From Euglena gracilis (Eukaryota), in the NCBI GenBank assembly GCA_039621445.1, contig CP154954.1:40355572-40419571 (forward strand): a stretch of DNA of 64,000 bases, read 5' to 3'. The notes under the pieces were generated by a model that had not been told where the DNA came from, did not search any database, and saw only the letters and a program-made list of their open reading frames with translations. A program made the translations under genes and the position numbers. This document shows positions 5,896-64,000 of this stretch, in pieces. The stretch's first letter is position 1. Each line of letters opens with the position of its first letter.

Positions 5896-6189
5896 TGCTG
5901 GCGTCTCTGAAGCGGTGGGGCATCCACTCAAAAAAAAAGGACCACTCGGGCTCCGCACTGCGAGATGGTGAGGCCCTGCTTTCTTTGCCGGCTGTTCTGT
6001 TCTGGTGTGTTTGTGCGTGCGCGGGGAATGCTTCCTACTGCTGACCATTCGGGCTTCGCACCTTCAGGGGGTGAGATCCTGCTTTGTGTGCCGGCTGTTT
6101 TGTTGTTTGTGTTCTTTTTTGGCGGGGTGCTTCTTACTGCTTTTTGGTGCCGGAGTTGGCGGATATTAACGCCCTTCGACAACATCAAA

Positions 6190-12314: not shown

Positions 12315-12781
12315 GAAGCATCCCGCCAAAAAAGAACACAAACAACAAAACAGCCGGCACACAAAGCAGGATCTCACCCCCCTCTTGTGCTCCGCCCTCA
12401 TGGTCACTTCCTCCCTGGTCATGCTTCGCGGGAGTACTCTTTTGTTGCCGGAGTTGGCTGATTCCTAATTCTGCCCTTCCACCTCAAGGAGAAAGACTTT
12501 CAACTCTACGAGTGCGGTCAATACGGAAGACAAAAATCAATCACGTGTTCAACGGACTTCAATGAAAGATGTGTTGGAAAAAATTTGACCACTCGGGCTC
12601 CGCACTGCGAGATGGTGAGGTCCTGCTTTCCTTGCCGGCTGTTCTGTTGTGGTGTGTTTGTGCGTGCGCGGGGGGTGCTTCTTACTGCTTTTTGTTGCCG
12701 GAGTTGGCTGATTCCTAATTCTGCCCTTCGACCTCAAGGAGAAAGAAATTTCAACTCAACGAGTTCAGCAACGTTCAGCAA

Positions 12782-15700: not shown

Positions 15701-15956
15701 GAGATTAATGTTAAACCCAGACCTAACATGTCTGTTGATCGTACCCCACTGGGCTTCGACATCATGGTGGCGCCAATTAATGGCAATCAGACAGCCAGGC
15801 AGCAAAGTTTTGCTGGTCCCCCCCCAATGGGGTCTATTCACCAACTGCTGGGGGGAGGAGATGCCCCCCCCAAGGTGGAATTTGGCCTGCTTGATTGTGT
15901 CAGGCAAATATTACAATCCCAGGAAGTTTCGATGTCCAGTATCAACACTTACATAA
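12782..15956 (+). CDS. DIRS B ORF1 (low complexity) + RT + RNase H + adenine methyltransferase-like domain, with homopolymer frameshifts (e.g. ~14510)
   Basis: RLISDCRQLN, IDLKDAYFH, IYLDD, FSDSS, HINQKEL, LADSLTR, DMFCT and YANPPW across frames 13537-14550 and 12864-15956. Confidence 0.85.
13530..14008 (+). repeat. Internal tandem repeats of B: AGGCCAATGGAGGCCA x5-6 and CCCCAGTGATGGGG x3
   Basis: First motif near 13531, 13564, 13636, 13664, 13693; hairpin motif at 13934, 13961, 13991. Hairpin copies also occur in C (~18265-18334). Confidence 0.85.
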
Positions 15957-17172
15957 AAAATCTGGGAAATGTCAAAAGATATGACTCAGCCTTTATGACA
16001 TTGATGGGCCAATTATTGCAAAAAGGGGTGCCTCTGCAGAAGTGCCCCACAGTCCCCAAGACGGCTGAAGCCATCCTTGATCTTGCTGTTCATAGCATCA
16101 ACACTGCACGAAATGCATATGCAGCAGCCTTATTACTCCCAGGGTTTGGGTCTTTGAGATTTTCCCCTCTTCTGGCTCCATTGAAAAGGAAGTGGAATGC
16201 CAATGTCTGCAAGTATGCCCACTTTTGGGACCCCACTGATTTCCTGGAGAACATCATGAGGAATTCCACACCCCTCTCAGACCTATCTGTGAAAGAGCTC
16301 AGAAACAGGCTCATCATCTGTTGGAGGCTTTTAGCCGTCCACAGGGGGGTTGATTTAGCCAGGACACAGCGAAAAATCAGTTTCGTGGGAGAAAAAATTT
16401 TCATTTTGTTGCAAAGGAAAGGGTGGCAATTCCCAAGATGGGAAGAAGTTTTGAATCTGCCACACACCCCCCTCATAAGCCCTTGGCATTTATTGAAAGA
16501 GTATGTGGAAAGGACAGCCCACATGGTTGGACACAAAAATAATTTGTTATGGTCTTTGGATGGTAAAAGACCTTTGACATCAGAAAGGGTGAATTCCCTG
16601 ACCAGAGAAATCCTGCAAGAGGGGGGGGTGGACACCACCCACTGGAAACCCCACAGCACCAGAGGGGCTGGGGTTTTATGGTGGAAAAATGCTGGTTTGC
16701 AAGTGGAAGAAGTCCAGCAATTGGGTCGGTGGAAAAATTTTGGGGCATTCCAAGCTCATTATTTAAGGCTGGGAGTCGTGTCAAAAATTCAAAATATTAT
16801 GGCCCAAAGGGGGGTGCACAGTACCTCACCATCTCGCAGTGCGGAGCCCGAATGGTCTCGGACTCCCACGACACAGGAAGGGGGAGGAAGGGACCAAGAG
16901 GGCGAAGCACAAGAAGATGGTGAACCCAACCCTCCCACCCCAAAAATCAGCAGAAAAAGAAAACCATCCCAACCAGAAAGGAGACCCCCGACCAAGCAGC
17001 CCCAGCCACCCACCCAGGAAAACAGAAAGAGACAACCATCCCCATCGAGGGGGGGGGCCCCCACCAAGCGACCATGGGAGAGGGGGGGGGGGCGGGGCCA
17101 CGGCGGTTCAGTTTCGCCAAGGTGTCGGAGGAGGCCACCTCATCGCCAACTCCGGCAACAAAGGCGCAGTAA
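14489..17172 (+). CDS. DIRS B tyrosine recombinase ORF
   Basis: VHRGVDLAR, KPHSTRGAG, LGRW...FQAHYLR. The stop homologous to those of A and C is TAA at 17170-17172; the run-on to 17353 is explained by a poly-G indel near 17085. Confidence 0.88.
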
Positions 17173-17301
17173 GAAGCACCCCCCGCGCACGCACAAACAC
17201 ACCAGAACAGAACAGCCGGCAAGGAAAGCAGGACCTCACCATCTTCTTGTGCTTCGCCCTCTTGGTCCCTTCCTCCTCCTTCCTGTGTCGTGGGAGTCCG
17301 A

Positions 17302-20286
17302 CAAGCTGTCAAGAAGAAGTGGGAGCACAAGGAAGTTCAAGACAGACAGCTGAAGCTGGAAAACACCGAGGGGCTGCACACGCTGGAGTACCTGATGGAG
17401 CAGGGCCAGGACGCCCGTCCGTGGCCGTCGCAACCCTTCCGCCCCCCAGTTCGTCAGAAATGTCCTGTTTTCAGCAAAGCTTTTGTGACGGACATGGACC
17501 CTGGACACTTGTGGTCAGAGCAAAGCGACGGAGAAGCCATCCAGGGCAAGGCTCATTGGGTCATGGGGACCCATCACAGTCATCATCAATCAAGGAAACA
17601 TTGTCAGGAGAGGGAAAAACAGGTCTGGCATACTACCCATCACCCTTTTCTTCGTCCCCCCCCCCTTCCAGGGGGCAAAACAAAGGCTATGGCAGCCTTT
17701 CAACAAAAGCCAAAAACTCAAGGAATTCAAGTCATCATGGCTATGGCAGCCATCATCCAGAAGGACCTGGGGTCCACAGTCAAGGCTATGGCAGCCTTTA
17801 TTCAAGAGGGCAGTGGCCCCAGGGGCAAGGCAATGGCAGCCAGTACCCCAGCCTGGAAAGATCCCATTGGGGAAAGGTATGTCCAACTTTCCCCCCAGCA
17901 ATTTCAAAAACAAACCCCCCAGGAGCTGCAAAACAATACCAAAAAGGGGCCATGGTCGCCTATGTGGGGAATCCAGAAGGACTGAGAAGTCCTGGAGAAA
18001 AGGCCAATGGAGGCCAAGCAGGCCTGAGTGCCTCTCGAGGCCAAAGGGCCCTGAAGGCAAATGGTGGCCAATACCATCAAAGCCAGCCAAACCACACCAG
18101 CCCTTGGGGGGGAGGCCCAAGATTGGCTCAGGCAGGCCCCCCCCAGAAGATAATCATCCCAGCATTATATGTACCACCCCACCACAGGCACAGACCTTCC
18201 CCCATCATTCCAAAACAGGGGGAAAGCCTGTCTTTGGGAAGCCCTATGGCAGGGCCAGCTGCAGCCCAGTGATGGGGCAACCAGAGGGGGCCCCAGTGAT
18301 GGGGCAGCCAGGGGGAAGGACCCCAGTGATGGGGCCTGTGGAATCCCCAGATACATTGCACCCAGGGGTGCCCCCTTACATGGCCCTGCAGACCAGTATC
18401 CCCCATTGGGTCAAGGCAGGAGCCAGCAGAGAGGTATTAAACCTGATAAGGGAAGGGGTTATGGCAGATCTCCCTCTCCCCCCTCGGATGTCATTAAAAG
18501 TTCCCTTCAAGACACCCCAAGAAATAATGACTGCCCAGAAAATTCTGAGAGAATACGAATGTGCAGGGGCAACCAGGCAAATCACCCCAGAGGAGGCAAA
18601 ACATTTTGTCCCTTATTTTATCATTTCCAAAAAAGAGAGGGAAAAGACAAAAGAAAGGTTAATCTCAGATTGTCGACAGCTAAATCTCCACTTCACCCCC
18701 CCAGAAGTTCAGACTGGAACACATGGGAAACATTTTCCCATACTTAAAAAAGGGTTGGTTCTGTGGGAAAATCGATCTGAAAGCTGCTTATTTTCACCTA
18801 AAGCTGCACAGCAGCCTGGAAAAGCATATGTTTGCATGCAAGTGGGGGGGGAAACGTGGCAGTTTCAGGCTGCATGCTTCGGCATCAGCAGCCTGCCACA
18901 AAAGTTTATGACTCTCATGAGAGTCTGGGAAAGGAAGTGGAGAAAGGAGGGAAAGGTGGTTTTCATCTACCTGGACGACATTTTGCTGCTAGCCCCCAGC
19001 AAAAAGACAGCAGCCCAACATTTGGCAGAGATAAAAAGAGACCTTTTGTTGGCAGGTTTCAGATTAAACCTCCCCAAATCCTGTCTGGAACCAACACAGG
19101 AAATAAATCATTTGGGCCAGTGGATCAATCTGAAAAAAGGCCAATTAGAAATTCCTCAAGAAAAGCTGAAATCCCTCAGAAAGGAGCTAGGCAAGGTGCT
19201 CACAGCACAGCTGCAGAAAACTCAGTTCGATTGTGGGTCAAGTCAGAAGCTGTTTAGTCTCAATGCCATTTCTCAGAATTCTGACAGATCAACTTTGCAA
19301 AATGGTGGACCTGCACACAAAGTGGGGTTGGGACCACACCGTAACCATTCCCCAGGCGGTCAAGGATCAAATTGTGGAGTTAAAGGCATTTCTACAGCCA
19401 GGGGTTGGCAGGGCCTTTCAATCCCAGGCCACTCAGAATCTCTTTTCAGACAGCAGCACCTGGCAATGGGGGGGGGGGGGCTGGACAAGGCTTCAGGCCA
19501 AAAGGTGCAGGATTTTTGGAGGGACCTGCATGTCCTTCATAGCAATCAAAAAGAATTGCAAGCTGCAGTGGAAACTGTCAAAGCACTGGCCAAACCAAAA
19601 CACACAATTGTGCTTCATGTGGACAGCCAGGTGGCTGTAAGTTATTTAACAAAATGGGGAGGCAGAAAGCCGTATTTAAATTCCATCTTAAAACCCCTGC
19701 TGTATCATTGTCAGGAAAAGCAAATCAACTTGCAGGTGGTTTGGGTTCCCACAAAGGAGCAATTGGCAGACTCCTTGACCAGAGAGCAAAAGGACCCAGC
19801 GGATTATGCCCTAAACCTGAACATCTTTCACCAAATTCTTCAATTTTTCAGAAAAGACATGTCCCCAGAGGTGGACATGTTTTGCACACCCAGCAACAAA
19901 AAATTCCCCAAGTTTGTTTGTCGATACCCCCACCAAGGGGCTTTGCTGGTGGATGCCTTGAGGGCAGATTTGAGGGGTCTCCCCCCAGTTTATGCAAATC
20001 CTCCCTGGAGCATCATTCCCCAGTGGGTTCAGAGATTGATGCTAAACCCAGACCTGAATTGTCTGTTGATCGTACCCCACTGGGCTTCAACATCGTGGTG
20101 GCGCCAGTTAATGTCAATCAGGCAGCCAGGCAGCAAAGTTTTGTTGGTACCCCCCCAATGGGGTCTGTTCACCAACTGCTGTGGGGAAGAGATGCCCCCC
20201 CAAGGTGGAATTTGGCCTGCTTGATTGTGTCAGGCAAATATTACAATCCCAGGCAGTTTCGATGTCCAGTATCGATACTTACATAA
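17302..20286 (+). pseudogene. DIRS C ORF1-RT-RH-MT, frameshifted and interrupted by B
   Basis: Close paralogue of B (IYLDD, DMFCT, YANPPW) split over several frames. Confidence 0.85.
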
Positions 20287-21497
20287 AGAATCTGGGGAAT
20301 GTCAAAAGATATGACTCAGCCTTCAAGGCTTTGATGGGTCAATTGTTGCACAAGGGGGTGCCCCTGCAGGACTGCACAGTCCACAGGATGGCTGAGGCCA
20401 TCCTTGATCTGGCTGCCCACAGCCTCAACACTGCACGAAATGCATATGCAGCAGTGTTATTACTCTCAGGGTTTGGATCATTGAGGTTTTCCCCTCTGTT
20501 GTCTCTATTGAAAAGGAAATGGAATTCCAATGTCTGCAAGTATGCCCACTTTTGGGACCCCACTGATTTCCTGGAAAACATCTTGAGGAATTCGTCACCC
20601 CTCTCTGACCTGTCTGTGAAGGAGCTCAGAAACAGGCTCATCCTCTGTTGGAGGCTGTTGGCCCTCCACAGGGGGGTTGATCTAGCCAGGACACAGCGAA
20701 AAATCAGTTTCGTGGGAGAAAAAATGTTCATTTTATTGCAAAGGAAAGGCTGGCAATTCCCAAGACGGGAAGAAGTTTTGAATTTGCAACACACCCCCCT
20801 CATCAGCCCCTGGCATTTATTGAAAGAGTATGTCGAAAGGACTGCCCACATGGTTGGACACAAAAATAATTTGTTGTGGTCTTTGGATGGTAAAAGACCT
20901 TTGACATCAGAAAGGGTGAATTCCCTGACCAGAGAAATTCTGCAAGAGGGGGGGGGACACCACCCACTGGAAACCCCACAGCACCAGAGGGGCTGGGGTT
21001 TTATGGTGGAAAATGCTGGTTTGCAAGTGGAAGAAGTCCAGCAACTGGGTCAGTGGAAAAATTTTGGGGCCTTCCAAGCTCATTATTTGAGGCTGGGTGT
21101 CGTTTCAAAAATTCAAACAATTATGGCCCAAAGGGGGGTGCACAATACCTCACCATCTCGCAGTGCGGAGCCCGAATGGTCTCGGACTCCCACGACAGAG
21201 GAAGGGGGAGGAAGGGACCAAGAGGGCGAAGCACAAGAAGATGGTGAGCCCAACCCTCCAACCCAAAAATTCAGCAGAAAAAGAAAAACATCCCAACCAG
21301 AAAGGAGACCCCCGACCAAGCAGCCCCAGCCACCCACCCAGGAAAACAGAAAGAGACAACCATCCCCATCGAGGGGGGGGGGGGCCCACCAAGCGACCAT
21401 GGGAGAAGAGGGGGGGGGGGCGGGGCCACGGTTCAGCTTCGCCAAGGTGTCGGACGCAGCCTCATCATCGCCAACTCCGGCAACAAAGGCGCAGTAA
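20181..21497 (+). pseudogene. DIRS C tyrosine recombinase
   Basis: LHRGVDLAR and LGQW...FQAHYLR are present; the HSTR region is locally out of frame because of compensating indels near 20950-21010. Confidence 0.85.
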
Positions 21498-21752
21498 GAA
21501 GCACCCCCGCGCACACACAAACACACCAGAACAGAACAGCCGGCAAAGAAAGCAGGACCTCACCATCTTCTTGTGCTTCGCCCTCTTGGTCCTTTCCTCC
21601 CCCTTCCTCTGTCGTGGGAGTCCGAGACAGGGCAGCTCCCAAATAAAAAAAATTTCCACCCGAGCGAGTATCTTTTTTTTGGCTCGGGTCAGCTACGTGC
21701 TCCCGTGAGGGGGAGAACCCTGCACGAGGACGGGGCACCAAGGGCGAGGGAC

Positions 21753-22009: not shown

Positions 22010-23830
22010 CATTCGTTCTCCCTCGTGGAAAACCGACAAGGGAGGAAGGGACACCGGGGACGAAGCCCAAAGGCCTTGGTGGCCATGCGTTGCTCGCCGG
22101 GGGTGTTGCGTAGGTTTTTCCTTTGTGCTGGGTGAGGAGACCCCGCTTAGTGCCGCCTCGCCGGAGTTGGCTGAGTATGCAGCCCCGACTTGGCGACGTG
22201 GCTTCTTGCCCCTGGGCCCCCCCCTCTGCCCCCTGGCCCTCATTTTCTGACCGAGGGCTTTTGTACACAAATTTTCTTTTACCGGTGGGGGTTCGGGCTC
22301 ACAAGGTCTTTGTGCTTCGCCCTCGGTGCCGCTTCCTCCCTTGTCGGTTTTTCCTCGAGGGAGTGCGGGACCCCTCTGGCTCCGCACTTTGCCCTTGTGA
22401 GGCCAGATTGTGCACTGAAATTAGGGGGGCCAGGGCATTTTCCAAGGCACCTTGGGCACCAAAGCGTTGATAGTAAAAGCCTCCACCCCCCTCCACTGAC
22501 CAATTCAAAAAACTTCTTGGGCAGAAAGGCCCAATTTTCTGAGTGAACCAACTCCTGCCCCTCTGGTGGAGGGGGCCCCCCACACCTGGGGGTACCCCTT
22601 GCTTGGCCAAAAATTCCTTGGTGATAGAGGCAACGGTGTCTGCACTTATGGCCCTGAAGGGGTTTTTTAGTGAAATATGAAGGGGGCCCCAGGGCTGACG
22701 AATGAACGTGTGGCAGTTACATAACACATCATTAAATGAAATGGCTTATTTGTGGACACTGGGGTATGGACACAACCCTTTCTCTCTTGTGAAAATTTTG
22801 CCCTTTATGTTAAATTTTGATTTAGGGTGCCCCACCCAACCCACCCACCACCCACCACCCCACACACTGGTGGTTCGTTTGACTTGTGCCAAGTCAGAGG
22901 CCCTGTATAAACAGAGGATTCGTGAGGAAAAAAAAAGTTGTGTGCGCAATGTACAAGTGTCAGTGAGCACAGGGGCCTTGGCGAGCCCAGGAGGATTGGG
23001 ACGGGATCCCAGAATGCCCCATACTTCTCCAGATTTTGGTCCCAAAGCCGCTTGTGAGGGGTAAAAAGGTTGTGGAATCTCAGCCCACCAAACGCAGGAA
23101 CCAAAAGCATAGCAATGTATGTATGCATTATGGGCTTGGGCCTTGGAGAATTGGAATAATTGTATTAAAGCGTCAGCCACTTGGGCTGTGGTGGCTTCAG
23201 GGGGTGGCACCCCCATTTTCTCCAAAATTACCCACATAAGTGCAAAAGCACTCTGATACCTTTTAAACTGGGGTTTCTCCCCAGGAAATCGTCAACGGTT
23301 TTAACCTTAATTTGTTTCCCCTCCAAAATTTGCCTGAGCAAATCATGCAAAGCAGGGGCCACCTGGGGGGTGGCATTTGTTCCCCCCTGCAATTGGTGAA
23401 CATACCCACGTAGGGGATGATTTTCAGGCATGGGGCCCCTGCAACTTTCATTTTTATTAACTGAGGCCACCATGTGGCTGAATCCCAGTAGGGGGTGACC
23501 AACAAAACTTTGATCTGGGGAAACATTCTCAACCTGGGCAGAAGTTTTTGGATTATTGACCAGGGGGGGGTTTGCATAAAGATCCCCATGTTGTCCAGTG
23601 GACATTGTTATGCATTTACTGCTGTGGCTTCCCAATGGGGCCACCTGGCCACAAGATTGGGCATTTTTTTGTTGCCTGGGGAGGCAAATAAAACTGTTTC
23701 CAGATATGTGACGTTTTAAAAATGCTGCATTAGCCATTCAAAAAGTTGGGGGGTCTAAATAATTGTAGCCCCTGTTCATTTCCCGTCTGCTTATGGGGTC
23801 TGCCAGGCAATCTTTTGAAGGCTTCCAGTT
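22010..23830 (-). mobile_element. Degenerate, 5'-truncated DIRS element D (third family): end of RH, MT, YR, ICR, right end
   Basis: Minus-strand DLYANPP, VTPYWDSATWWPQL, KYGAFWDP, LYRASDLA. 22308-22363 is inverted-complementary to 22018-22072 (ICR versus right extension). Confidence 0.8.
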
Positions 23831-25508: not shown

Positions 25509-25889
25509 TATACATATATAGACATATATATATCTATGTCTATATATATATATATATCTATATATATCTATGTCTATATATATACATATAGACATAGATA
25601 TATATATAGATATAGATATAGATAGAGATATAGATATATATATATGGATATAGATACAGACATAGACGTAGACATAGAGAGAGATATAGATATAGATATA
25701 GATATAGACATAGAAGATGTAGGATAAATATAGGTATGGATATAGACATAGGCATAGACATAGACATGTACATAGGTATAGATATGGATATATCTCTCGA
25801 TAGAGACATAGGCAGAGACATAGACATAGATATAGGTATAGATACAGATATAGATATAGATATAGATAGAGATAGAGATATAGATATAT

Positions 25890-25890
<1 letters not shown>
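25370..25890. repeat. (TAGATA)n/(TA)n microsatellite grading into the GATA array
   Basis: Seen directly; a similar short tract lies at ~24985-25050. Confidence 0.9.
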
Positions 25891-43381
<17,491 letters not shown>

Positions 43382-43448
43382 ATCTAGGTAAAAATAATAT
43401 ATGCAGATGGCAGGTGAGGACTATAAACACCCCCCGGCGGTCCCTAAA

Positions 43449-54700: not shown

Positions 54701-55469
54701 CAAAAACGTGAAAATGCGCGGTGTAAGTGCAAACCGGTGGTACTTGCCGTGCTAAGTGTTGCGGGACTTCCACTCCCAGGTCACACATGGTAATGTCCAT
54801 CGCGAATCCCGACGCGTTCGAGTCGGTGCAATACACCGAACCAGACGTCATTGCCTGGGCGCACATAAACCACAGAGCTCGAAGGGTGTTCGCGATGTTC
54901 AAAATTTGGCGGAAGTTGTCATCCCACAGTTCCTGTGTGAGGTGGTCCGGTGCCGGGGCTGCGGCCATGAACATCACCCGGTTCACCGACTCCGCCGCGC
55001 GGTGGATCATCACGCCCGCTTACGGAGGGAGGCGACGAGAGCCTGATGGCTGAAATGGCCGCCCTTCCGCGGGCATAGTGGTCATCCTGCTACAGCTGCC
55101 GGCTTCAGGCTTTCCCTGAGCCGCAGTCCGTGCAGGCGGCTGTGTACCGTATAGGCAGGCATATTGGTCTGGGTGAGGGTGAGTGGTTGGCTGGTAAGGC
55201 GTTACTCCGCCTGGCTCCCTTCCGCCGGGCGGCACGATACCATCCAGGGTCGGTACGGTGGCCTGGTTGGGTTGTTGGCTGTAACGTGGTAAGGGTAACT
55301 TTCCCTTCTTGACCATTTTCGGTACAGAAAAATTCTGTGGAAAGAAAGAATGATAAGGTTTATTAATAAAACGGCATAAAACTACGTGGTTTCCCATGCA
55401 CTGTCAAAAACTTGACATGGAAGTATCGAGGTCATGCTTTTTGCCCCACAGCTTTCAACCTTGCTGGAC

Positions 55470-55590
55470 ATACCCAGCAAACTGCTTGCTGGCTCCCAAG
55501 TGTCCTGCTCGGGTCCATAAGAGTTCCAGCGGACTTTCCAAAGGTGCATACCTTTGTCGATTTTGTTTTCGAGGATTTTATCGACTACTG
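55470..55590 (-). pseudogene. Chromodomain, probably the integrase C-terminus of a chromovirus-type Ty3/gypsy relic
   Basis: VDKILENKIDKGMHLWKVRWNSYGPEQDTWEPASSL fits the chromodomain pattern V..I......y.VkW.gy....tWEP. Confidence 0.85.
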
Positions 55591-58500
55591 TTGGCCGCAG
55601 GCTTTCGCCGGCAGCCACAAATTGCCAGAAAGTGCAAATCCCAACCTTCAAATTCTTTTTCTTTTCACAGAGCTTCATGGATTTACCACAATCTTTGGCA
55701 AAGGAGGGATAATTGTATTGAATTTTGCACTTACATTCTTGGCGGAATCGGACGTGTGTATTACATTGCTGGTGGGCTTTGAATTGCATTTGCACATTAG
55801 TCATTGACGTCAAATTGGTTATTGAAGTCAACAAGGAGACAAGTCAAGTAAAGAACCTACAACACCGCCACCACCTCTTCCTCTACAACGCCTCCCCTCC
55901 TTGCCCCAGGTTGGCACATTTTAACGTTCCATTTCAGTTCTCACGGTTCACTTTCATTTGTTCACTCTCAAGTTACTTTCAGTTTCAGTGTTTGTTTCGG
56001 GATCAGTGCGTTGCTTGGTGGTTTGTGCTACCTTCAAGTGTGAGTGAGAGTGTGAGTGAGAGAGAGAGATTGAGATTTCATTCAAAATTGTAGATTTTTC
56101 GATTTTCACCAAATTTTCAGGAAAAATTACAAAAAAGATCCTATGCACCGGCTGGGGTTGGTGAACGCACCTGGGTGAAATAATTGGGGTTGGATTAAGC
56201 CCACCAATTTCCCGAGAAAGCGCAGGCCCCAACCCGGAAACACCCACCCCCCTGCAGTCGGTGGTTACCCACGACGGCGAGGACCCCCCGCCGAGGGGGG
56301 CCTCGGCCAACCGGGACACGCCGGTCGCGGGGGCGACAGGCGGCGCACAGGGGGTGGGAAGAGTGAATGGTACGCAGAGGTTGCTTCAATGACTCTGTCA
56401 GTGAACATTTTTTTGTTCGATTAACGGCAAATCAGAGACCCTGAACATGGTTAGCAGAGGCCAGCTCACTGACTTCATCAGTGAGGATTTTTCAGATTCG
56501 GTGAACATCGTCGCACAGATTTGTTCCGTTGGCTCTGGCAGCAGAAACAGTGCAAACGTTTCAGTTTCGGTTAACATGGCAAGCAAAGGTTGTTTCACTG
56601 ACCCTGTCAGTGAACATTTTACAGAGAAGTTCGACACGCTTGCAGAGGTTTGCTCTGGATGCCGTGCCAGCAGAATGGCACATGAGGACAGTTTCACCAA
56701 CCCTGTGGTCTGTGAATTTTCAGAAGAATATGCAGAAATCTGCTCGTCTCGAGGTCAATCTCAATTTGAGGTTGTGGTGAACATTTCCTAAAATCTGTGG
56801 CAGAAAGCTGCTTTCAGAATGAAAAGGATACTGAATTTTCTGCAGCCCAGTTTTCAGAATCTACGGCATCATTGCGAATTGTGACGGAATCTGTGGCAGA
56901 AAACACTTTTCAGAATGCAGAATCCTTATTGTCTTCAGAATTTTCAGAAACAACACAAAAATCAGAATCTGATTCAGAATCAGAGAAGGTGTCAATTACA
57001 TGCATGAGGCATCACAGTGGCAGGGGCAAAAATTTACAGGTGGTATCACTGCACAGCAGTGACGATGAACCATACCCCCCAGCGTACGAAAGCGAAACAG
57101 AGGAAGAAAAAAACTGCTGAAAAAGATATAATTCAGGAAATGGTTATGCAAAGAATGAAGTCTGCTGGCATGTGTCCAATAAATTTTTCAAGTTTTCAGC
57201 AAATTTGGGTGGCGTCACGAGACAGCAGACCAGGTCCAGAACAAACAAATTTGTGTTTAACAGCCCAGCCAGAACCATCGGTGTTAACACGGAGTTCATA
57301 GTCGCAAGCAGCACAGCCGGCTGCAGCCCAGCCGCAGGTTTTTCAGGCAACCCAGCCGTTTTCGCTTGAGATATCTGTCCCAGCCCAGATCCCTGTCCGA
57401 AACCAGCAAGATTTGGAAATGGATTCGGGCCATGTCCAATCTAATGATGACTGGAACACTGGGGTGAAGAAATCAGTTGCAAAATTGAAGGTTTACAATG
57501 CAGAGGTTTGGTGCAGGAAGGGGAAAATCCTGAGAAAACAGATGAAAATCTGGTGGGTGATGCAGAAAACAGCCAAATCGGGCATTGGCCAGGTTACAGG
57601 GGCAAACATTGAATCTGGTGAATGAGGCATTGGACATGCATGCTCAGCGAAAGGCTGATCACATTGCCATGATGAAGCATGTAATTCAGGCTGAACTGAG
57701 TGCAACCGTAAACGACTTGCTGTTGCAGTTCCTGCAAAATGGTGAAATGGTGCAAAATCTGGCCCAATGCCAAAGGCATTTGTTGAGTGTGGAAATGGAA
57801 AGGCAGTTTGATGAAAAAGTGAAGAAAGTGCAGGATGGAATAAACACTTTTTATGAGGCCCAGGTTGAGGAGTTGAATGAGAGGGATTTTTCTCAGAGGC
57901 TGTCATTTTTGAAAAAATCTGTGGGGGAGATGCATGTGGCGGAACAGCAAGTGGGGAAGAGGGAAAACCGGGAGGAAATTGCTGTTAATCTGGTCAAATC
58001 CGCAGTCGCTGGGCTAAGCTCTGGTCTGTAGGGCCGTTTTGTGATCATTTTTCAGCAATGCAAAGGTTTTGGGGAGACTGACTGTGCCAAAATTCAGGCA
58101 CAGGCTGAAAAATTGAAGGAACTTTCACAGTCCCTGAAGCGAGAGAGCAAATCTCTGAATGATTGTTTGAGGAGGCTGGAAAATTTTCTGGGTCGGAAAG
58201 ATTATCCCATTGAGAAAGTCTGTGACCTGTTTAACAAGAGTGAGGAAACAATTCCGTTGGAGGTGCTAAGGGGGTTGAGGCCGCAAACAAAAAAGAACAT
58301 GGACTTCTTTATCAGTGAAAGGTTGCAGGAGACGTTGAGGCTGAGTGAAAGGGAGGGGTATTTTGAAAAAGTACTGGCTGAAATGGAAAATTCGATGAAC
58401 GGTAGGTTGGAGTTTTACTGCAATAGCAGTCCCGTGAACTTTTTGAAGAGCAACAGGAGCGAAAAAATTGCAGCAAAAGCTGGATTAGTTTCAGGCTGAG

Positions 58501-58667
58501 TTTTTGGGGATGAAAAATCAGCAAGCTGAATCTGCCAAAGCTGCGAAGGTGGATCTGACAAATGAAACGAGAGAAAAATCAACTGGACATCGAGAAATAG
58601 AGGAGTTTGATGTTTTTGGTAACAACAAGTTATCGGTGATTGAGAAGAATCAGGCTAAAATTGAAGC

Positions 58668-59400
58668 CTATGAATACGGGCAAAAAGACTTCTCCTCCAG
58701 CGGTGAAACCTTCGAAACCTTGCAGGGCTGTTTCCCAGTGTCACGTTCCACGGCACAAATAATGTTTTCCTCAGTTGCTGGCACTTTAGGGTACATTTTG
58801 ACGTTCGTTCCACGCGTTGACTTCCTTTCCTCCTCTTCAGCGACCCAATGCAAAATGAAATTTGGCAGTTTCCCCTTGACCAGCCTTTCTGCCTCATCGT
58901 CAGTGGCACTTTTCACCTGTCCCCAGGCCATTCTGAAACTTATGCCAAAATCTCGCAACTCCCGTACGGTAATTTTCCCTTGGTTCACAAGGTTGACATC
59001 ATTCCATTTTTTTCCTGGCACAATCAGACTGAGTTATAGCATATTTCCCGTCAAACCTGTCGAATTCCTGCTGAAAGATGCCTTTCCGTTCAATTCCATT
59101 CGGAATTGCAATTCCTTTTGATTTGTGGCGTCCAGCGTCATTGCAAAAAGCCAAAGTTTGAGGGGATAAGACACATTTCCACTATGTAAAGTAGCCAACG
59201 TCATGAAATATTGCTGACAATCACGCACAAAGGACGACAAGAGTTTTGGCGGTCCACAAAGTTTTGGAGGAACCAGAATTTTCCTCAATTGATTCGTTGC
59301 CAATGCATTTGATGAAACCAGCCCTGCACCTGCGGGCACTGTCCCCACAGGGCGTACACAAACCTGCCTGACATGTGTCGCACGTGTCCCTGGATCTTGC
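58668..59400 (-). pseudogene. Gag-like fragment of another retroelement in opposite orientation
   Basis: PPKLCGPPKLLSSFVRDCQQY resembles the P.F.G...W..F..DW gag motif also seen near 46000 and 60540. Confidence 0.5.
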
Positions 59401-60519
59401 AACAAACTGAAAGAGTTCAGTGGAAACCAATCCAGGCACGGACAAAAGGAAAAAAATCGTGGAGGAACAGCCAAAAATGGATGCTGAAGAAATTTTTCGC
59501 TTTGTGGAGCGAAAATTGTCGGCCAGGTATCATTAAGCCACATTACACCTTTCCAGAGAGCCAAATGGGTCCGGAAACCGGTGGGTCAGTCCTGCAAAGG
59601 CAGATCGGGCCAAAGGGTCCAGGCTACCCTCCCCAGCAGGGTCAGCAAAGGAGGGCGAGACGGTGGTAAAATCCTACGTTGGAATTTCAGATTCACAGGT
59701 GGCAGCTCCTGCGACCAATGCAAACGTGAACCCACCGCGCAAAATACAGTGCCAGTGATTCAATCACGGTCATTGCCACCCCCCGGCAATTTCAATTTGG
59801 CAACGAGAGGGGATGAAGAAACGATTCTGGGTGGAATTCCAATACCAATGCCATTTTTCAGGGAAATAAGTGGTGTCACTCAAATCAACAGAATTTCATC
59901 CACAGTCTGGTGGTGGCAAAGGCAAAGGCAAAGGCAAAGGAAAGGGCAAAGACAACAATTCATGGGGGAAACGAAAGAATGGAAACGACCGGCATAGGGG
60001 TAAGGGCCAGGATGGTGGAAAAGGCAACCGAGTTCCTTGTACAGAATAGCATCTGCAACAGGAAGTTGTCGTTCAAGCTGTGGTCAGCAAGTTCCTAGTG
60101 GAGAATTCAACAGTTGTTGCACTGGTTACTTGGTTGAAGCTTGTGGTGCTGCTGATCTCCTTGCGGTCAAGAACAAGATCCTGGTGTAGGCAAGATCTTC
60201 ATCATCTTTCTGACCTGGTCCTGAACCAAGTGGTTGGTTTTCTGTTCTGGTTTCTTCAGTTTTGTTTGGCTTTTTGGGTTGGCAAGTGTTTCTCCCAGTT
60301 TTCAGAGCCAGTGGTTGAGTTTTTTTGAAAGTGATCTGCAGAAAAGTCGTCAAATTGAAGATTTGTAAAGAAGGTTGCAAGAATTGGAAAGCAAGTCAGC
60401 CAGCAGCAGTCAGTCCGTGTTTACCCCTGTGAACCCCTCACCCAGGTGGAAACATCTCTGAAGCAAGTTGTGGAACCAAACTCCAGAAACCCCAGCCAAA
60501 GTTCAACCCAAAATTCAAG

Positions 60520-61334
60520 TTTACCCCCTGTGAAATTGCCAGAGTTTGATGGCGCAAACTGGCCAGAGTTTGTGAAAGATTTTGACAGATGGTTGAGGTT
60601 AACTGGTGCTGGTACACTTGGAAGTGTCCAGAAAAAGGATTGCCTGTTGGAACGTTGTTGAACGAACTTGTTGAAAAGTGTTTGATGAGAATGAGGATTT
60701 TTTAAAAGTGCTGTTGTAAATTTTAAAATTGTTTGCAACACTGGAAAATGGCATGACTTTCAGGTCTGCCATTGAGAAATTGCCAGCACTTTCACAGAAC
60801 CCTGTAACCACAAGACATCAAGAAAACTTTCAATGAGTTGGACAATTTGATGGCAAGGTTGAGCCCCCAGGACACGAGTGAACACGAAAAGTTTCTGCTT
60901 TTGCTGAGGAAATTACACACCAGAATGTATGCAGACATGATCTTTCTGTGATTTTCACAGATTTGAGAAAAAAAAATTTGGAAAACAGCTTCGAAGATTG
61001 GTTGGAGAGGAATTTGTTGAAAAAAGGAAACCTCAGGTCCCTGATTGAAAGCCCCTTTGACCAATCAGAAGAAGGTGGTGAAAGTGTCCCAGAATCTAGA
61101 AAAGGTAGAACGTTTGGTGGAAAAGGAGAAGGCAAAGGAAAAGGCAAATGCAAGGGTGAAAGAGAAGTTGATGACACCCCAGCCCCACGATTTGGAGCCA
61201 CAATTTTCTGTCGATTTTGTCACAAAAAACGGCATTATGAAGACAGATGGTGGTTAAGAGAAAAGATTGAGAAAAATAAGGCAGCAGCCCAGAAAAGGCA
61301 GGCAAATGGACCCCTTCGGTTCAACCCCAGGTAG
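60520..61334 (+). pseudogene. gag: gag (capsid-like region + degenerate CCHC knuckle)
   Basis: KLPEFDGANWPEFVKDFDRWL; CRFCHKKRHYEDRW (Cx2Cx4Hx4C with the last C changed to W); stops and frameshifts. Confidence 0.7.
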
Positions 61335-61399
61335 TGCAAACCCAGGTTACCCCCTTGGGTGACAACCACAAAAAGAGAAAGGCTGATGCTTTGCATTTC

Positions 61400-61690
61400 C
61401 TCCAGATGGTGTGTAAAACTTATCTGTTGCCAGTGAAGGTTTATGGAAAGGATGTTCAAGCCATTTTGGACACAGGTGCCACCATTACTGCAGTTTCTAA
61501 GAAATGTGTTCCTGAGAATAAATTTCAGCGGAGTGCAGTGGTACCCCTGCACATCGACAACGGGGAGTACACTGTTCCCGAGGGGACGTCGACATGTGTT
61601 TGCAGTTTGGGTCTAAGGTTTTGAATTTGACAGCTGTTGTGGTGGATACTTGTGCGTTGAGGCAGTTTTGGGGACTGAATTCATAGAAAG
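61400..61690 (+). pseudogene. Retropepsin-type aspartic protease
   Basis: VKVYGKDVQAILDTGATITAVS. Confidence 0.9.
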
Positions 61691-61815
61691 TGAGTTTTTT
61701 GGAGGGTGGTTGACCAGACCCCCCCAGAATTATCATCAGAGATGAGGAGTTTTTACTTCAGTGCCATGATGGGGACCACACTATCAAAAGCATTTTCAAA
61801 ATTTTCAACACAAAA

Positions 61816-62245
61816 AGTTACACTTTGGTCAGGCCAGTGAAGTCAAAAGCTATGGAAAAATTGAAGATTTCTGAGGGCCAAATTTGCATTGATCTTTTTG
61901 CAAACCACCTGAACGACACACAGTCTTTGTACATGACGAAAGGGAATTCAGCCTACAGGTATTCATGGGAATAATTGTTGTGTGACCTTGGTGCTTCAAA
62001 GTTTCTGTGAGCAAACCCACCCTTCAGCAAACTAAGCACAGTGGTGACCAGGTTGTGCGCTGATGAAACAAAAACGGTCTTGGTGCACCCAGACTGGGTG
62101 GACCAGTACCGGTCCCCCCTGCTTGAAAGGGTAACGGTGGCCATGGTTAAAATTTCAAGTGGGGTTCCCTTGTTTGTGGTGTGGCAGGTGCAAAAGGTGC
62201 CCTCCCCTCTGTGGAACACTCTTGTGACTGTGGTGGACACAGTGC
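61816..62245 (+). pseudogene. N6-adenine DNA methyltransferase-like domain (Dam/DIRS-MT type) inside gypsy pol
   Basis: One frame reads SYTL...IDLFANHLN...NSAYRYSWE*...FL*ANPPFSKLSTVV...VLVHPDW...SPLL...PSPLW, the same motif order as the DIRS MT domains in this window. Two in-frame stops. Confidence 0.82.
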
Positions 62246-62999
62246 AATTCAAAGTGGATTTTGAGCTTTTGGACCACAAAATTGTCAGTTGGCTCAGAAA
62301 AGTTTCAAGAAATTGGAATTTGGATGAATTGAGACGTGAGACCAGGAAGTACCCCACAGTGGATGATGAAATGCAAGTGGATTTCCCAGATGTTCCTGAT
62401 GTCCACCCAGCAGCAGGCACCCAAGCATGCCAATCCACCTGCAGACCAGCAAGTTTTTGAAACTCCAAGGTTTCCTTTGTGGACTGTTCCCCCCAAAGAA
62501 TCAGAGGAATAGGTGAAAGAATGGTTGGACAATGTTCGGGTGTGTGAACCAATAAGTGAGCATGAAAACAGCAGTTTTTTGGGTGAATTGACAAAGGACG
62601 TTGAAAGTGAGCTGAGCCTTTTTAAGGAATGAGAAAAGATGTGGATGTGAAGTTTTTCCAGCTGTCCAGGCCTGTGGAAGAGGTTCAGTTTGCAAAACCT
62701 GTGAAGACTCCCAAGGCAACAATCAAGATGGATAAACTAAAGAGCATTTCCCAGGATTACATGAAAAGATTTTGACTTTGTGGGCCCAAACAAATGCTCA
62801 GTGAAAAAGCAGCAAATTGTTTACTGAGAACCTGATTGGAGAATTTGATAAAGAATTTGAGAAATTCAGAGACCACCCCAGGTGGTATGAGCTTTTGGTG
62901 AAATTTTCGGATGTTTTTGGACCATTGGCCACAATTTCTGAGTCTTCCCCCCTGCCTGTTTTGATGGACATAGCTGAAGCCTGAATGGGAAGGCAAACC

Positions 63000-64000
63000 G
63001 CTAAGGCAAAGGTGTTGGCCCATGCCCCAGGAGGATGAAAAAGTAATTGATCTTCAGTGTGAAGAATTGCTAAAGTCAGGGTTGATTGAGCAGTTCCCAG
63101 TTGGTGAAATCCCCCAGGTGTGCAGCCCCACATTTTTGGTGGACAAAAAAATGGTCAAGTACCAGAAGGACGGTCATTCATTACAGAAAATTGAATTCCA
63201 GAATCAAGGCACTTGCAGCGTTTTTGCCAAACATGGAAATTCGGACTGAAAGTTTGGTCAAGTGTCGGTTCAAAAGTGCCCTGGACATGAGGAGTGGGTA
63301 TTGGCAAATCGCAATCACAAAAAGCGCACCAGGTTTGTCTGAATTTTGCATTCCTTCAGGGAGGTGTTTTCGTCCGAAAAGGATAATATTTCGGTTGATG
63401 AATGCCCCAGGGATTTTTCAGGAGTTGATGTAAATCCGAACCTCCCAATGCCAAACGGTTTTGAGGGTGAAAAAGACTTTGAAGGATGGACACCTGGCTT
63501 CTTTTCCCGATGACACAGGGGTTAGTGCAAACTCTGAGGAGGACCATTCGTATCTTTTGGAAAAGTGGTTTGAAGTTCCAGAAAGAACCAAGTGAGAGTC
63601 AAATCGAGCAAATGTTCTTTTCTGAATAAGACTACTGACTACTTGGGCTTCTCGTTGGGATAGGGAATGTGGCGGCAAACAAGAGGAACATTGAACCAAT
63701 TTTGAGTTTTCGAGTTCAGAATCAAAGGTATTTGAGGCGAATGTTGGGAGCCATTAATTTTTACCGCAGACACATGGAAGGGTTTACATTTGACTCAGCC
63801 CCACTGACAGGTCTTCTGAAAAAGAATGTGAAATGGAAGTGGACTGAAAAGAAGGAGAGTTGTTATGCTTTGAAAAGGAAATTATCTTCCCTTGATGTTT
63901 TGGGTACCACAAGAAGTTCGGGAGAGATTGTTTTGGTGACTGACAGTTCGCATTTAGGAGGTGGTTCTGCATTGTTTCAGTTGCAAACCCTCCAACAAAT
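63000..64000 (+). pseudogene. pol: Ty3/gypsy-type reverse transcriptase and start of RNase H
   Basis: ELLKSGLIE, CSPTFLVDKK, HYRKLN, ALDMRSGYWQI, FRLMNAPGIFQ, FPDD, IVLVTDSSHLGGGSALFQ. Confidence 0.9.

What the first reader, a model, noticed from the sequence alone, without database searches (positions are those of the whole stretch)
61400..64000. Ty3/gypsy-like retrotransposon with an N6-adenine methyltransferase domain between protease and RT
Seen: between LDTGA (protease) and a gypsy-type RT, one frame encodes DLFA (61891-61902), SAYRYSW, [W>stop]ANPPF (NPPF at 62014-62025), VHPDW and PSPLW. The ORF track misses the N-terminal half, including DLFA and NPPF, because of two stops. Established: [DNSH]PP[YFW] is the amino-MTase catalytic motif; Dam-like domains are typical of DIRS elements, where they follow RNase H; canonical gypsy pol is PR-RT-RH-IN. 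Inference: an LTR lineage that independently acquired an adenine MTase at a different position, perhaps to mark its own cDNA. No DIRS RH, YR or ITR sequence flanks it, so it looks native rather than a nested fragment. I cannot confirm from here that it is undescribed.
Basis: partly seen in the sequence, partly recalled or inferred. Interest (0 to 1): 0.85.

Follow-up and report, generated by a model that had tools for sequence, protein, structure and literature searches.

The report
Dead gypsy retrotransposon carrying adenine methyltransferase
This is a decayed copy of a jumping gene of the Ty3/gypsy type whose enzyme-coding gene carries an extra adenine-methyltransferase module between its protease and reverse transcriptase; intact relatives prove the module is native, and a 2026 preprint has already described this general kind of element.

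Summary
DLFA (61891-61902) and NPPF (62014-62025) lie in one frame between LDTGAT (61466-61483) and an RT remnant, with stops at 61972 and 62008. The window copy is dead, with at least 14 stops and several frame changes along the homologous path.

The domain is native. The copy is collinear, gag-PR-MT-RT-RH, with an intact 1988-aa ORF in metagenome locus L001. That ORF reads gag-PR-Dam-RT-RH-IN-chromo. Four more open polyproteins have the same order. The MT is as conserved as PR and IN (47, 48 and 50% identity). NPP[FWY] is kept in 98 of 115 relatives.

An AlphaFold model (pLDDT 91) matches small phage Dam methyltransferases and PCIF1. The DIRS elements in the same window carry a very different MT.

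Gypsy elements with a Dam domain ("DAM-LTRs") were described in bioRxiv 10.64898/2026.05.21.726589. The text I read does not mention the PR-MT-RT order. Pfam Dam scores in the full-length members of this lineage (19.7-24.8 bits) are below threshold. I call it a probable new variant of a known kind. Catalysis and substrate remain untested.

The parts
60455..61334 (+). gag remnant. It holds KLPEFDG at 60533-60553 and a decayed C-X2-C-X4-H zinc-knuckle stretch at 61209-61253.
   Evidence: tblastn of the L001 polyprotein: residues 87-162 and 153-537 match here at 25-34% identity. Stops on the path at 60659, 60672, 60717, 60834, 60879 and 61332. Relatives' gag parts align (relatives' rows only). 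Motif places.
61364..61609 (+). Aspartic protease remnant, with LDTGAT at 61466-61483.
   Evidence: Pfam RVP E 2.2e-6, 28.3 bits. 38% identical to L001 residues 421-498 with no stop in this HSP. 45% identical to P0001 residues 1-69.
61576..61797 (+). PR-MT junction. The frame changes here (PR frame to MT frame), and stops lie at 61684 and 61711.
   Evidence: Overlapping tblastn HSPs in two frames. DNA depth dips in bin 61540-61663.
61798..62340 (+). Dam/PCIF1-like N6-adenine methyltransferase domain, dead. DLFA 61891-61902, SAYRYSW 61948-61968, stop 61972, stop 62008, NPPF 62014-62025, VHPDW 62083-62097, PSPLW 62200-62214.
   Evidence: E 1.3e-58 to P0001. 36% identical to the L001 MT region. 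Aligns motif by motif with 29 relatives. Pfam Dam E 0.022. 235.7 bits against the family HMM built here.
62341..62822 (+). Poorly conserved MT-RT linker.
   Evidence: No tblastn match to L001 between 62421 and 62823. This linker is the least conserved part among intact relatives, at 34% mean identity.
62823..63675 (+). Reverse transcriptase remnant. DVFGPL 62910-62927, SGYWQI 63293-63310, FPDD at the YxDD place 63503-63514. Four frame changes, stops at 63431 and 63661.
   Evidence: 42-49% identical to L001 residues 905-1186 in frames 0, 1, 2, 1. Pfam RVT_1 E 0.0054 on one piece.
63675..64000 (+). Start of the Ty3-type RNase H-like domain. It runs off the window end.
   Evidence: 47% identical to L001 residues 1187-1294. 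Pfam RT_RNaseH_2 E 4.3e-4.

Best explanation
Window 60455-64000 (+) is the 5' two thirds of a dead copy of a chromovirus-like Ty3/gypsy LTR retrotransposon. The lineage's polyprotein reads gag-PR-MT-RT-RH-IN-chromodomain. MT is a small class I methyltransferase domain of the phage-Dam/PCIF1 type. Its D-L-F-A motif sits at the end of the first strand, and N-P-P-F sits right after the strand that precedes the catalytic loop. The domain is a native part of pol under purifying selection, not a nested DIRS fragment. The family is highly repeated in the host, and sister copies are transcribed at a low level. This particular copy cannot make protein. Shown: anatomy, collinearity, conservation, fold. 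Inferred, at about 0.4 to 0.45: in live copies the domain is made with Gag-Pol, packaged with the RNA and RT, and transfers a methyl group from SAM to N6 of adenines in the element's own replication intermediate (nascent cDNA or RNA:DNA hybrid). New insertions would then carry 6mA. This is the model proposed for DAM-LTRs in the 2026 preprint. The confidence below is for identity and architecture.
For: The window is collinear from L001 residue 87 to 1294, across gag, PR, MT, RT and RH. L001 has one 1988-aa ORF: PR 439-525, Dam 594-649, RVT_1 1012-1180, RNase H, Integrase_H2C2, rve, Chromo 1916-1949. P0160 (2039 aa), P0161, P0162 and P0163 have the same order in open frames. An exhaustive phmmer search with P0001 found 570 cluster representatives at E<=1e-3 and 190 at E<=1e-10. 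Of the best 150, 21 span PR and MT in one protein, 97 are cut before PR could show, 30 end before NPPF, and 2 have room upstream but no PR. Of 30 long representatives scanned with Pfam, 8 have PR plus Dam, 5 PR only, 9 Dam only, 8 neither, and none reaches RT. NPP[FWY] is kept in 98 of 115 relatives and D.F[AST] in 104 of 119. Mean pairwise identity among the five full-length proteins: MT 47%, PR 48%, IN 50%, RT 58%, RH 58%, linkers 34% and 43%. The AlphaFold2 model of the L001 MT has pLDDT 91.3 and pTM 0.86. BFVD top hits are small phage DNA N6-adenine methyltransferases (E 6.6e-8 to 2e-6, rmsd 2.4-3.0 A over 140-150 columns), with giant-virus PCIF1 proteins among them. The top PDB hit is PCIF1/CAPAM (Foldseek E 2.8e-5; VIA-align Z 9.2, rmsd 3.1 over 131 residues). 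KsgA (Z 8.3), T4 Dam (7.1) and E. coli Dam (7.1) follow. The exact 12-mer TGGTAGCAGAGG occurs once in each of L001, L002 and L003, outside the ORFs. L001's contig ends overlap by 70 nt. Both fit a primer-binding site and collapsed LTRs. In DNA runs of the host, 2952 and 3411 contig pieces were laid at 88% identity or more. X1 depth in the four MT bins spanning 61788-62283 was 73,000-110,000. The two PR bins spanning 61292-61539 gave 101,000-172,000, and the four RT bins spanning 63028-63523 gave 41,000-183,000. RNA runs gave 28 and 99 reads, none 99% or more alike.
Against: No activity is shown. The preprint reports that DIRS and DAM-LTR DAMs expressed in dam-deficient E. coli did not raise 6mA (read in Results). 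Iyer et al. 2016 (PMC4738411, passages read) held the DIRS1 MT domains to be inactive. Pfam Dam scores are below the curated cut-off of 28.1 in the window (14.9 bits) and in all five full-length PR-MT proteins (19.7-24.8 bits). A profile of the domain finds no PDB sequence even at E<=10. The stretch between the DLFA strand and the NPPF strand is only about 32 residues in the model. So the usual second and third strands that hold SAM are minimal, and SAM binding is not established. The integrase, the LTRs and a primer-binding site could not be shown for the window copy itself.
Confidence: 0.85

Rival explanations
1. The domain is a PCIF1-like RNA adenosine methyltransferase. It would modify the element's own transcript (cap-adjacent or internal A), or only the RNA strand or the hybrid, and not double-stranded DNA.
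For: PCIF1/CAPAM is the top solved structure in two searches of different design. Next come rRNA adenine methyltransferases (KsgA, Dim1, Erm), ahead of T4 and E. coli Dam. Iyer et al. 2016 place the DIRS MT domains in the PCIF1 clade (PMC4738411, passages read). The negative E. coli 6mA assay in the preprint would be expected under this reading.
Against: Among predicted viral structures, small phage DNA Dam proteins fit better than PCIF1 proteins (rmsd 2.4-3.0 A against 9-14 A). Pfam's only MT match is Dam PF05869. No WW domain or other PCIF1 accessory domain was found by Pfam. The preprint reports 6mA enrichment over DAM-LTR insertions.
Confidence: 0.2
2. The domain is conserved but non-catalytic. 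It would be a nucleic-acid or protein-binding module, for instance holding the template RNA or mimicking a host factor, as Iyer et al. proposed for DIRS1.
For: Heterologous assays were negative (preprint, Results). The SAM-binding half of the fold is minimal in the model. Iyer et al. 2016 argue this for DIRS1 (PMC4738411).
Against: The catalytic tetrad NPP[FWY] is kept in 98 of 115 relatives, and the acidic residue of DLFA in most of 119. A pure binding module would not be expected to keep these. The DIRS1 copies that Iyer et al. judged inactive were said to carry substitutions at such sites.
Confidence: 0.2
3. The MT stretch is a fragment of a DIRS element nested in, or mis-assembled into, a gypsy copy.
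For: DIRS-like elements with an MT lie in the same window at 9-20 kb. The copy is riddled with frameshifts.
Against: P0001 and 20 other proteins span PR and MT in one open frame. Five full-length open polyproteins carry MT between PR and RT. The window's DIRS MTs score 28-46 bits against the family HMM, where the gypsy MT scores 236, and they sit on a long separate branch. No RNase H or tyrosine recombinase match flanks the MT.
Confidence: 0.02
4. The PR-MT-RT lineage did not capture its MT independently. One ancestral gypsy element acquired the MT once, and the module later moved within pol, giving PR-MT-RT and RH-MT-IN forms.
For: In the MT tree, all 15 rows with PR upstream fall in one 51-row clade (SH-aLRT 84). 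Its sister is a 29-row clade (99) holding P0003, which reads PR-RT-RH-Dam-IN. L001 and P0003 are about equally diverged in RT-RH (26%), MT (29%) and IN (24%).
Against: The rows came from a search seeded with a PR-MT protein, so other MT lineages, most DIRS among them, are barely sampled. The DIRS outgroup is on long branches. Only P0003 and its near-copies show the RH-MT-IN context. The preprint infers repeated DIRS-to-LTR transfers.
Confidence: 0.4

Closest known systems
DAM-LTR retrotransposons (Fernandez-Moreno et al., bioRxiv 10.64898/2026.05.21.726589, May 2026). I read the outline, all of Results, Discussion and Methods. Figures and supplements were not available.
   Same: These are Ty3/gypsy-like LTR elements, some with chromodomains, whose pol carries a Dam-like domain with a conserved N-P-P triplet. 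The predicted fold is a five-strand sheet with flanking helices. Activity was not shown in E. coli.
   Different: The text defines five lineages: Chlorophyta chromovirus-like, Chloro-Ochrophyta (DAM between RT and IN), ichthyosporean, Pyropia and Euglena. It never mentions a DAM between protease and RT, and the words protease, aspartyl and RVP do not occur. Their screen needed a Pfam DAM hit at E<1e-5. The five full-length members here score only 19.7-24.8 bits, and 3 of 4 long relatives lack PF05869 in precomputed annotation. Whether this lineage is one of their five could not be tested.
DIRS1-like tyrosine-recombinase retrotransposons with a methyltransferase domain
   Same: The MT superfamily is the same (DLFA ... 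NPP[FW] layout). Such elements sit in the same window: RT-MT ORFs at 9255-11204, 12861-15956 and 17489-20224, and a Phage_integrase match in 14465-17353.
   Different: DIRS carry the MT after RT/RH and use a tyrosine recombinase. Here the MT lies between PR and RT, and relatives use a DDE integrase plus chromodomain. The MT sequences are far apart.
Gypsy polyproteins with Dam between RNase H and integrase (P0003, 1589 aa; P0155, 1641 aa)
   Same: They are gypsy-type pol proteins with a sister MT clade, and share LWANPPFS and the following motifs.
   Different: The MT position differs (after RH). Between DLFA and NPPF they read MDAF[ST][YF].W, where the PR-MT clade reads NSA[FW].Y.W. RT-RH is only 26% identical to L001.
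Small phage DNA N6-adenine methyltransferases (Pfam Dam, PF05869) and PCIF1/CAPAM
   Same: These are the best structural matches. They share the N-P-P-aromatic catalytic motif after the fourth strand.
   Different: There is no significant sequence match to any solved chain. The domain is embedded in a retroelement polyprotein. It has no WW domain as in PCIF1.
Retrotransposons carrying cytosine methyltransferases (SymbioDIRS-Dnmt3, SymbioLINE-DNMT, Gypsy-DNMT3; de Mendoza et al. 2018, PMC5890265, passages read)
   Same: A mobile element that carries its own nucleic-acid methyltransferase inside pol. The same idea of methylating its own cDNA was raised there.
   Different: The enzyme fold and target base are unrelated (C5-cytosine, not N6-adenine).

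Membership tests
Ty3/gypsy (Metaviridae) LTR retrotransposon, chromovirus-like | pol order PR-RT-RH-IN with a DDE integrase | tested here: met
   The window shows PR, RT and the start of RH in that order; IN lies beyond 64000. Collinear relatives L001, P0160, P0162 and P0163 carry RVT_1, RT_RNaseH, Integrase_H2C2 and rve in order.
Ty3/gypsy (Metaviridae) LTR retrotransposon, chromovirus-like | Long terminal repeats and a primer-binding site | tested here: inconclusive
   The window's 3' end is outside it and no 5' LTR was delimited. The 12-mer shared by L001, L002 and L003 is absent from the window above chance: 4 hits at 2 mismatches against 7.5 expected. L001's ends overlap by 70 nt, which fits collapsed LTRs. 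That the 12-mer pairs with an initiator tRNA 3' end is recalled, not tested.
Ty3/gypsy (Metaviridae) LTR retrotransposon, chromovirus-like | C-terminal chromodomain after the integrase | tested here: met
   Met in relatives only: L001, L002, L003, P0160 and P0162 have Chromo at E 1e-6 to 2.4e-5. Not testable in the window, which ends in RH.
DAM-LTR (bioRxiv 10.64898/2026.05.21.726589) | Dam-like domain in the same ORF or element as a gypsy-type RT and integrase | tested here: met
   Five open polyproteins show it, and the window copy is collinear with them. The Pfam Dam scores are below Pfam's cut-off; support comes from E-values of 1.9e-5 to 7.4e-4 plus the fold.
DAM-LTR (bioRxiv 10.64898/2026.05.21.726589) | Belongs to one of the five named lineages | not testable with these tools
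   No sequences, figures or supplements of the preprint were available. Its text gives no PR-DAM-RT architecture.
DAM-LTR (bioRxiv 10.64898/2026.05.21.726589) | Insertions enriched in 6mA in a host that encodes AMT1 | not testable with these tools
   No genome is held for the window, the host is coded, and no modified-base data were available.
Dam N6-adenine methyltransferase (Pfam PF05869) | Profile match at or above the curated score of 28.1 bits | tested here: not met
   Window 14.9 bits. L001 19.7, P0160 24.0, P0161 20.6, P0162 20.0, P0163 24.8. Two fragments that fall in the PR-MT clade of the MT tree reach or nearly reach the cut-off: P0141 29.9 and P0018 28.0. In the sister clade, P0003 scores 33.4 and P0066 36.3.
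Dam N6-adenine methyltransferase (Pfam PF05869) | Catalytic (D/N)PP(Y/F/W) motif after the fourth strand | tested here: met
   NPPF at 62014-62025. In the L001 model N75-P-P-F follows strand 71-74. Kept in 98 of 115 relatives.
Dam N6-adenine methyltransferase (Pfam PF05869) | Class I methyltransferase fold resembling known adenine-N6 enzymes | tested here: met
   Tested on the model of an intact relative (L001), not the window copy. Phage Dam proteins match at E 6.6e-8 and rmsd 2.4-3.0 A. PCIF1 gives Z 9.2, and T4 and E. coli Dam give Z 7.1.
Dam N6-adenine methyltransferase (Pfam PF05869) | SAM binding and methyl transfer to adenine | not testable with these tools
   This needs biochemistry. 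The preprint's E. coli assay on other DAM-TE domains was negative.
DIRS retrotransposon | Tyrosine recombinase instead of a DDE integrase, with the MT after RT/RH | tested here: not met
   The MT lies between PR and RT. Relatives carry rve and Integrase_H2C2 and no Phage_integrase.
PCIF1/CAPAM clade | PCIF1-type methyltransferase domain with an N-terminal WW domain, as a cellular single-copy gene | tested here: inconclusive
   PCIF1 is the top PDB match by structure, but there is no sequence match and Pfam finds no WW domain. The domain sits in a transposon polyprotein.

The most novel reading that the evidence does not exclude
The PR-MT-RT chromoviruses would be a sixth DAM-LTR lineage not yet recognised. 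It is large (hundreds of 50%-identity clusters in metagenome assemblies) and mostly invisible to Pfam-threshold screens. With its RH-MT-IN sister clade it would show that the methyltransferase module moved within pol after a single capture. Its enzyme would be a PCIF1-like adenine methyltransferase acting on the element's RNA or RNA:DNA hybrid rather than on duplex DNA, which would explain why E. coli assays of such domains were negative. In several relatives the ORF break falls just after the MT (L002, L003, P0064), so the MT may be made with Gag-PR in Gag-like amounts.
Probability: 0.25. Interest if true: 0.7.

Novelty: new variant of a known kind. Interest (0 to 1): 0.45.

Why it matters
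Retrotransposons that carry their own nucleic-acid methyltransferase suggest mobile DNA can write epigenetic marks on itself. A May 2026 preprint opened this topic for adenine methylation in gypsy-type elements. The lineage found here adds a different architecture, with the MT upstream of RT and next to the protease. It also adds intact natural sequences for biochemistry (L001, P0160, P0162, P0163). Domain screens at standard Pfam thresholds probably undercount such elements. The structural tie to both phage Dam and PCIF1 bears on an open disagreement about origin and substrate: prokaryotic Dam in the preprint, a PCIF1-derived and inactive domain in Iyer et al. 2016. The window copy itself is a dead pseudogene of no functional consequence.

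Tried and rejected
- **Own genome.** None is held, so genomic copies could not be collected.
- **Alignment A1.** I gave the window in the PR frame across the frameshift, so its row is meaningless after PR. Only the relatives' rows were used. A2 and A3 replaced it.
- **PDB by sequence.** The MT profile found 0 chains at E<=1 and at E<=10.
- **ESM Atlas.** P0001 gave only a 0.76 protease cluster. The window's DIRS ORF gave DIRS-like clusters from mixed phyla, with no host call.
- **Rfam on the whole window.** 0 matches.
- **Pfam on 132 flanking ORFs of 90 aa or more.** Only one Chromo match, on the minus strand, and no host gene. The host lineage stays unknown.
- **Cluster look-up of 10 relatives.** No organism names.
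- **Earlier notes of this scan.** Nothing, by place, sequence or words.
- **Sequencing-run search.** No RNA holder listed among indexed runs, and the organism is coded.
- **Primer-binding 12-mer.** Not found in the window above chance.
- **Troyka paper (PMC12440569).** The words methyltransferase and Dam do not occur in it.
- **Literature searches.** Searches found no paper other than the 2026 preprint describing a Dam domain in non-DIRS LTR elements.
- **dN/dS.** Not attempted. The only relatives with DNA (L001-L003) are 33-46% identical in protein, so synonymous sites are saturated. Domain-wise identity and motif retention were used instead.
Full report
**1. The observation**

- LDTGAT lies at 61466-61483.
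- In another frame lie DLFA 61891-61902, SAYRYSW 61948-61968, NPPF 62014-62025, VHPDW 62083-62097 and PSPLW 62200-62214.
- That frame is broken by stops at 61972 and 62008.
- The second stop occupies the column before A-NPPF, where all 29 aligned relatives carry the same residue.

- PR and MT are in different frames, with the change near 61576-61612.
- Two further stops (61684, 61711) lie upstream in the MT frame.
- The gag/PR path has eight stops.
- The RT part runs through frames 0, 1, 2, 1 and 0 and has stops at 63431 and 63661.

On the window copy alone the domain evidence is thin.

| Pfam family | E-value | Bits | Cut-off |
|---|---|---|---|
| Dam | 0.022 | 14.9 | 28.1 |
| RVP | 2.2e-6 | 28.3 | 20.7 |
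| RVT_1 | 0.0054 | 16.9 | 29.6 |
| RT_RNaseH_2 | 4.3e-4 | 20.7 | 29.8 |

**2. Relatives settle what it is**

The read-through translation of 61714-62460 finds P0001, an open 409-aa protein with protease followed by the same MT region (E 1.3e-58, 46% identity, 97% coverage).

An exhaustive phmmer search with P0001 over 1.84 billion cluster representatives gave 570 hits at E<=1e-3, 190 at E<=1e-10 and 32 at E<=1e-30. The best 150 sort as follows:
- 21 span protease and MT in one protein.
- 97 are cut at the N-terminus before a protease could show.
- 30 end before NPPF.
- 2 have room upstream but no protease match.

Pfam on 30 of the longer ones gave 8 with protease plus Dam, 5 with protease only, 9 with Dam only and 8 with neither. 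None reaches RT.

A metagenome scan returned 7 loci.
- L001 holds one 1988-aa ORF reading gag, protease 439-525, Dam 594-649, RVT_1 1012-1180, RNase H, integrase zinc finger, rve and Chromo 1916-1949.
- L002 and L003 have the same parts in two ORFs, with the break after the MT. In L002 the MT rests on the match to the PR-MT query and the family HMM, since Pfam Dam was not listed for its ORF1.
- A region-restricted search with the L001 MT found four more long proteins: P0160 (2039 aa), P0161, P0162 and P0163. Pfam places Dam between protease and RT in all of them.

The window is collinear with L001 from residue 87 to residue 1294. The element is therefore a gypsy-type, chromovirus-like LTR retrotransposon with the MT as a regular part of pol. 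Relatives continue into a DDE integrase, not a tyrosine recombinase.

**3. LTR features**

- L001's contig ends overlap by 70 nt at 99% identity.
- An exact 12-mer occurs once each in L001, L002 and L003, outside the ORFs.
- I read this as collapsed LTRs and a shared primer-binding site. The tRNA assignment is recalled, not tested.
- Neither feature could be shown in the window. Its 3' part lies beyond 64000.

**4. Is the domain under selection, and is it a methyltransferase?**

Conservation:

| Part | Mean pairwise identity among the five full-length proteins |
|---|---|
| MT | 47% |
| Protease | 48% |
| Integrase | 50% |
| RT | 58% |
| RNase H | 58% |
| MT-RT linker | 34% |
| IN-chromo spacer | 43% |

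NPP[FWY] is kept in 98 of 115 relatives that cover it, and D.F[AST] in 104 of 119.

Structure:
- An AlphaFold2 model of the L001 MT, built with a 30-row alignment, has pLDDT 91.3 and pTM 0.86.
- D37-L-F-A ends the first strand, and N75-P-P-F follows strand 71-74. By general knowledge of class I amino-methyltransferases, these are the places of motifs I and IV.
- Against predicted viral structures, the best matches are small phage DNA N6-adenine methyltransferases (E 6.6e-8 to 2e-6, rmsd 2.4-3.0 A over 140-150 columns). Giant-virus PCIF1 proteins are interleaved.
- Against solved structures, PCIF1/CAPAM is first by Foldseek (E 2.8e-5). It is also first by an independent all-against-all aligner (Z 9.2, rmsd 3.1 A, 131 residues).
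- KsgA (Z 8.3), T4 Dam (7.1) and E. coli Dam (7.1) follow.
- By sequence, no solved chain matches even at E<=10.

The fold and the motifs fit an adenine-N6 methyltransferase. Activity and substrate are not shown.

**5. Relation to DIRS and to other gypsy elements with an MT**

The same window holds DIRS-like elements.
- RT-MT ORFs lie at 9255-11204, 12861-15956 and 17489-20224.
- A Phage_integrase match lies in ORF 14465-17353.
- Their MTs score 28-46 bits against the HMM of the gypsy MT, where the window's gypsy MT scores 236.

I built an MT tree of 88 rows. Rows that did not cover HMM positions 45-140 were dropped. Five duplicates or near-copies (P0016, P0154, P0155, P0157, P0159) were also left out. 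In that tree:
- All 15 rows with a protease upstream fall in one 51-row clade (SH-aLRT 84).
- Its sister is a 29-row clade (99) holding P0003, whose order is PR-RT-RH-Dam-IN.
- The DIRS rows sit on long separate branches.

L001 and P0003 are about equally diverged in RT-RH (26%), MT (29%) and IN (24%).

A nested DIRS fragment is excluded. Whether the two gypsy architectures arose by one capture and a later move, or by two captures, is open. The rows were drawn from a search seeded with a PR-MT protein, and the outgroup is long-branched.

**6. The family in the host**

No genome is held, and the organism is coded.

DNA runs:
- In two runs, 2952 and 3411 contig pieces lay on 60300-64000 at 88% identity or more. 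Most were 90-95% alike.
- X1 depth in the four MT bins spanning 61788-62283 was 73,000-110,000. That is like the two protease bins spanning 61292-61539 (101,000-172,000) and the four RT bins spanning 63028-63523 (41,000-183,000).
- Sister copies therefore keep the MT region.
- The tool warns that these summed depths are not copy numbers.
- The stop at 61332 is not shared by the other copies laid.

RNA runs, read at about 5-6% of their size, gave 28 and 99 reads, none 99% or more alike. Sister copies are transcribed at a low level, and nothing shows that this copy is.

The region is CpG-poor, with observed/expected 0.30.

**7. What is known**

- bioRxiv 10.64898/2026.05.21.726589 (I read the outline, Results, Discussion and Methods; figures and supplements were not available) reports Dam-like domains in non-DIRS LTR retrotransposons as a first.
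- It defines five DAM-LTR lineages and proposes repeated DIRS-to-LTR transfer.
- It finds 6mA enrichment over DAM-LTR insertions in two ichthyosporeans and Euglena.
- It reports that expressed domains did not raise 6mA in dam-deficient E. coli.
- Its text gives the DAM position only for one lineage (between RT and IN) and never mentions a protease.
- Its screen used Pfam DAM at E<1e-5.
- The five full-length members here score 19.7-24.8 bits, and 3 of 4 long relatives lack PF05869 in precomputed annotation. The lineage may therefore have been undercounted or missed. That is an inference.
- Iyer et al. 2016 (PMC4738411, passages read) placed DIRS MT domains in the PCIF1 clade and thought them inactive. 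The preprint does not mention PCIF1. My fold searches recover both phage Dam and PCIF1.
- Four literature searches found no other paper on such elements.

**8. Mechanism**

- Shown: anatomy, native status, conservation and fold.
- Inferred, at about 0.4-0.45: in live copies the MT is made as part of Gag-Pol and packaged. It would methylate adenine N6 in the element's nascent cDNA or RNA:DNA hybrid, so that new insertions carry 6mA.
- Rivals: a PCIF1-like RNA methyltransferase (0.2) and a non-catalytic binding module (0.2).
- The window copy is a pseudogene.

**9. Verdict**

The kind is known since May 2026. The PR-MT-RT architecture is probably a new variant. Interest is moderate.

Noticed in passing
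window 25838-43382: A 17.5-kb uninterrupted tetranucleotide array, (ATAG)n, with 4409.8 copies and 97% matches. GC is 0.25 and GC skew is near 1.
   Followed up: partly
window 5900-21500 (+): A cluster of DIRS-like elements. Three RT-MT ORFs lie at 9255-11204, 12861-15956 and 17489-20224. An ORF at 14465-17353 has a Phage_integrase match (E 3.3e-4). The first copy's MT reads DMFA...YANPPW. CpG observed/expected is 0.28.
   Followed up: partly
window 55385-55843 (-): An ORF with a chromodomain (Pfam Chromo E 4.5e-9), probably the tail of another chromovirus copy on the other strand. It was not matched by the L001 polyprotein.
   Followed up: no
window 23281-23592 (-): A further MT-like fragment, 27% identical to L001 residues 627-727 (E 4.7e-6).
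   Followed up: no
window 57561-60049 (+): A run of plus-strand ORFs just upstream of the element: 57561-58031 and 58032-58499 (same frame, separated by one stop), 58489-59121, and 59488-59997. None has a Pfam match. A Gly-Lys repeat stretch at 59870-60049 resembles the GKGK run in the gag of relatives. This may be a fragment of another copy or an unknown upstream ORF.
   Followed up: no
L002 4190-4193; L003 2208-2535: In two of three metagenome elements the ORF break falls between MT and RT. L002 has a single in-frame stop. In L003 the two ORFs overlap in different frames. P0064 is a 744-aa gag-PR-MT protein on a 6725-nt contig. The other five full-length relatives are single ORFs. This could be a recoding site that puts the MT on the Gag-PR side, or just decay.
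   Followed up: partly
L001 7379-7390; L002 216-227; L003 6257-6268: The exact 12-mer TGGTAGCAGAGG is shared by three elements that are only 33-46% identical in protein. It is a likely primer-binding site.
   Followed up: partly
L004, L005, L006: Metagenome contigs with DIRS-like RT-Dam ORFs whose Dam scores (42-48 bits) are well above those of the gypsy-type MT.
   Followed up: no
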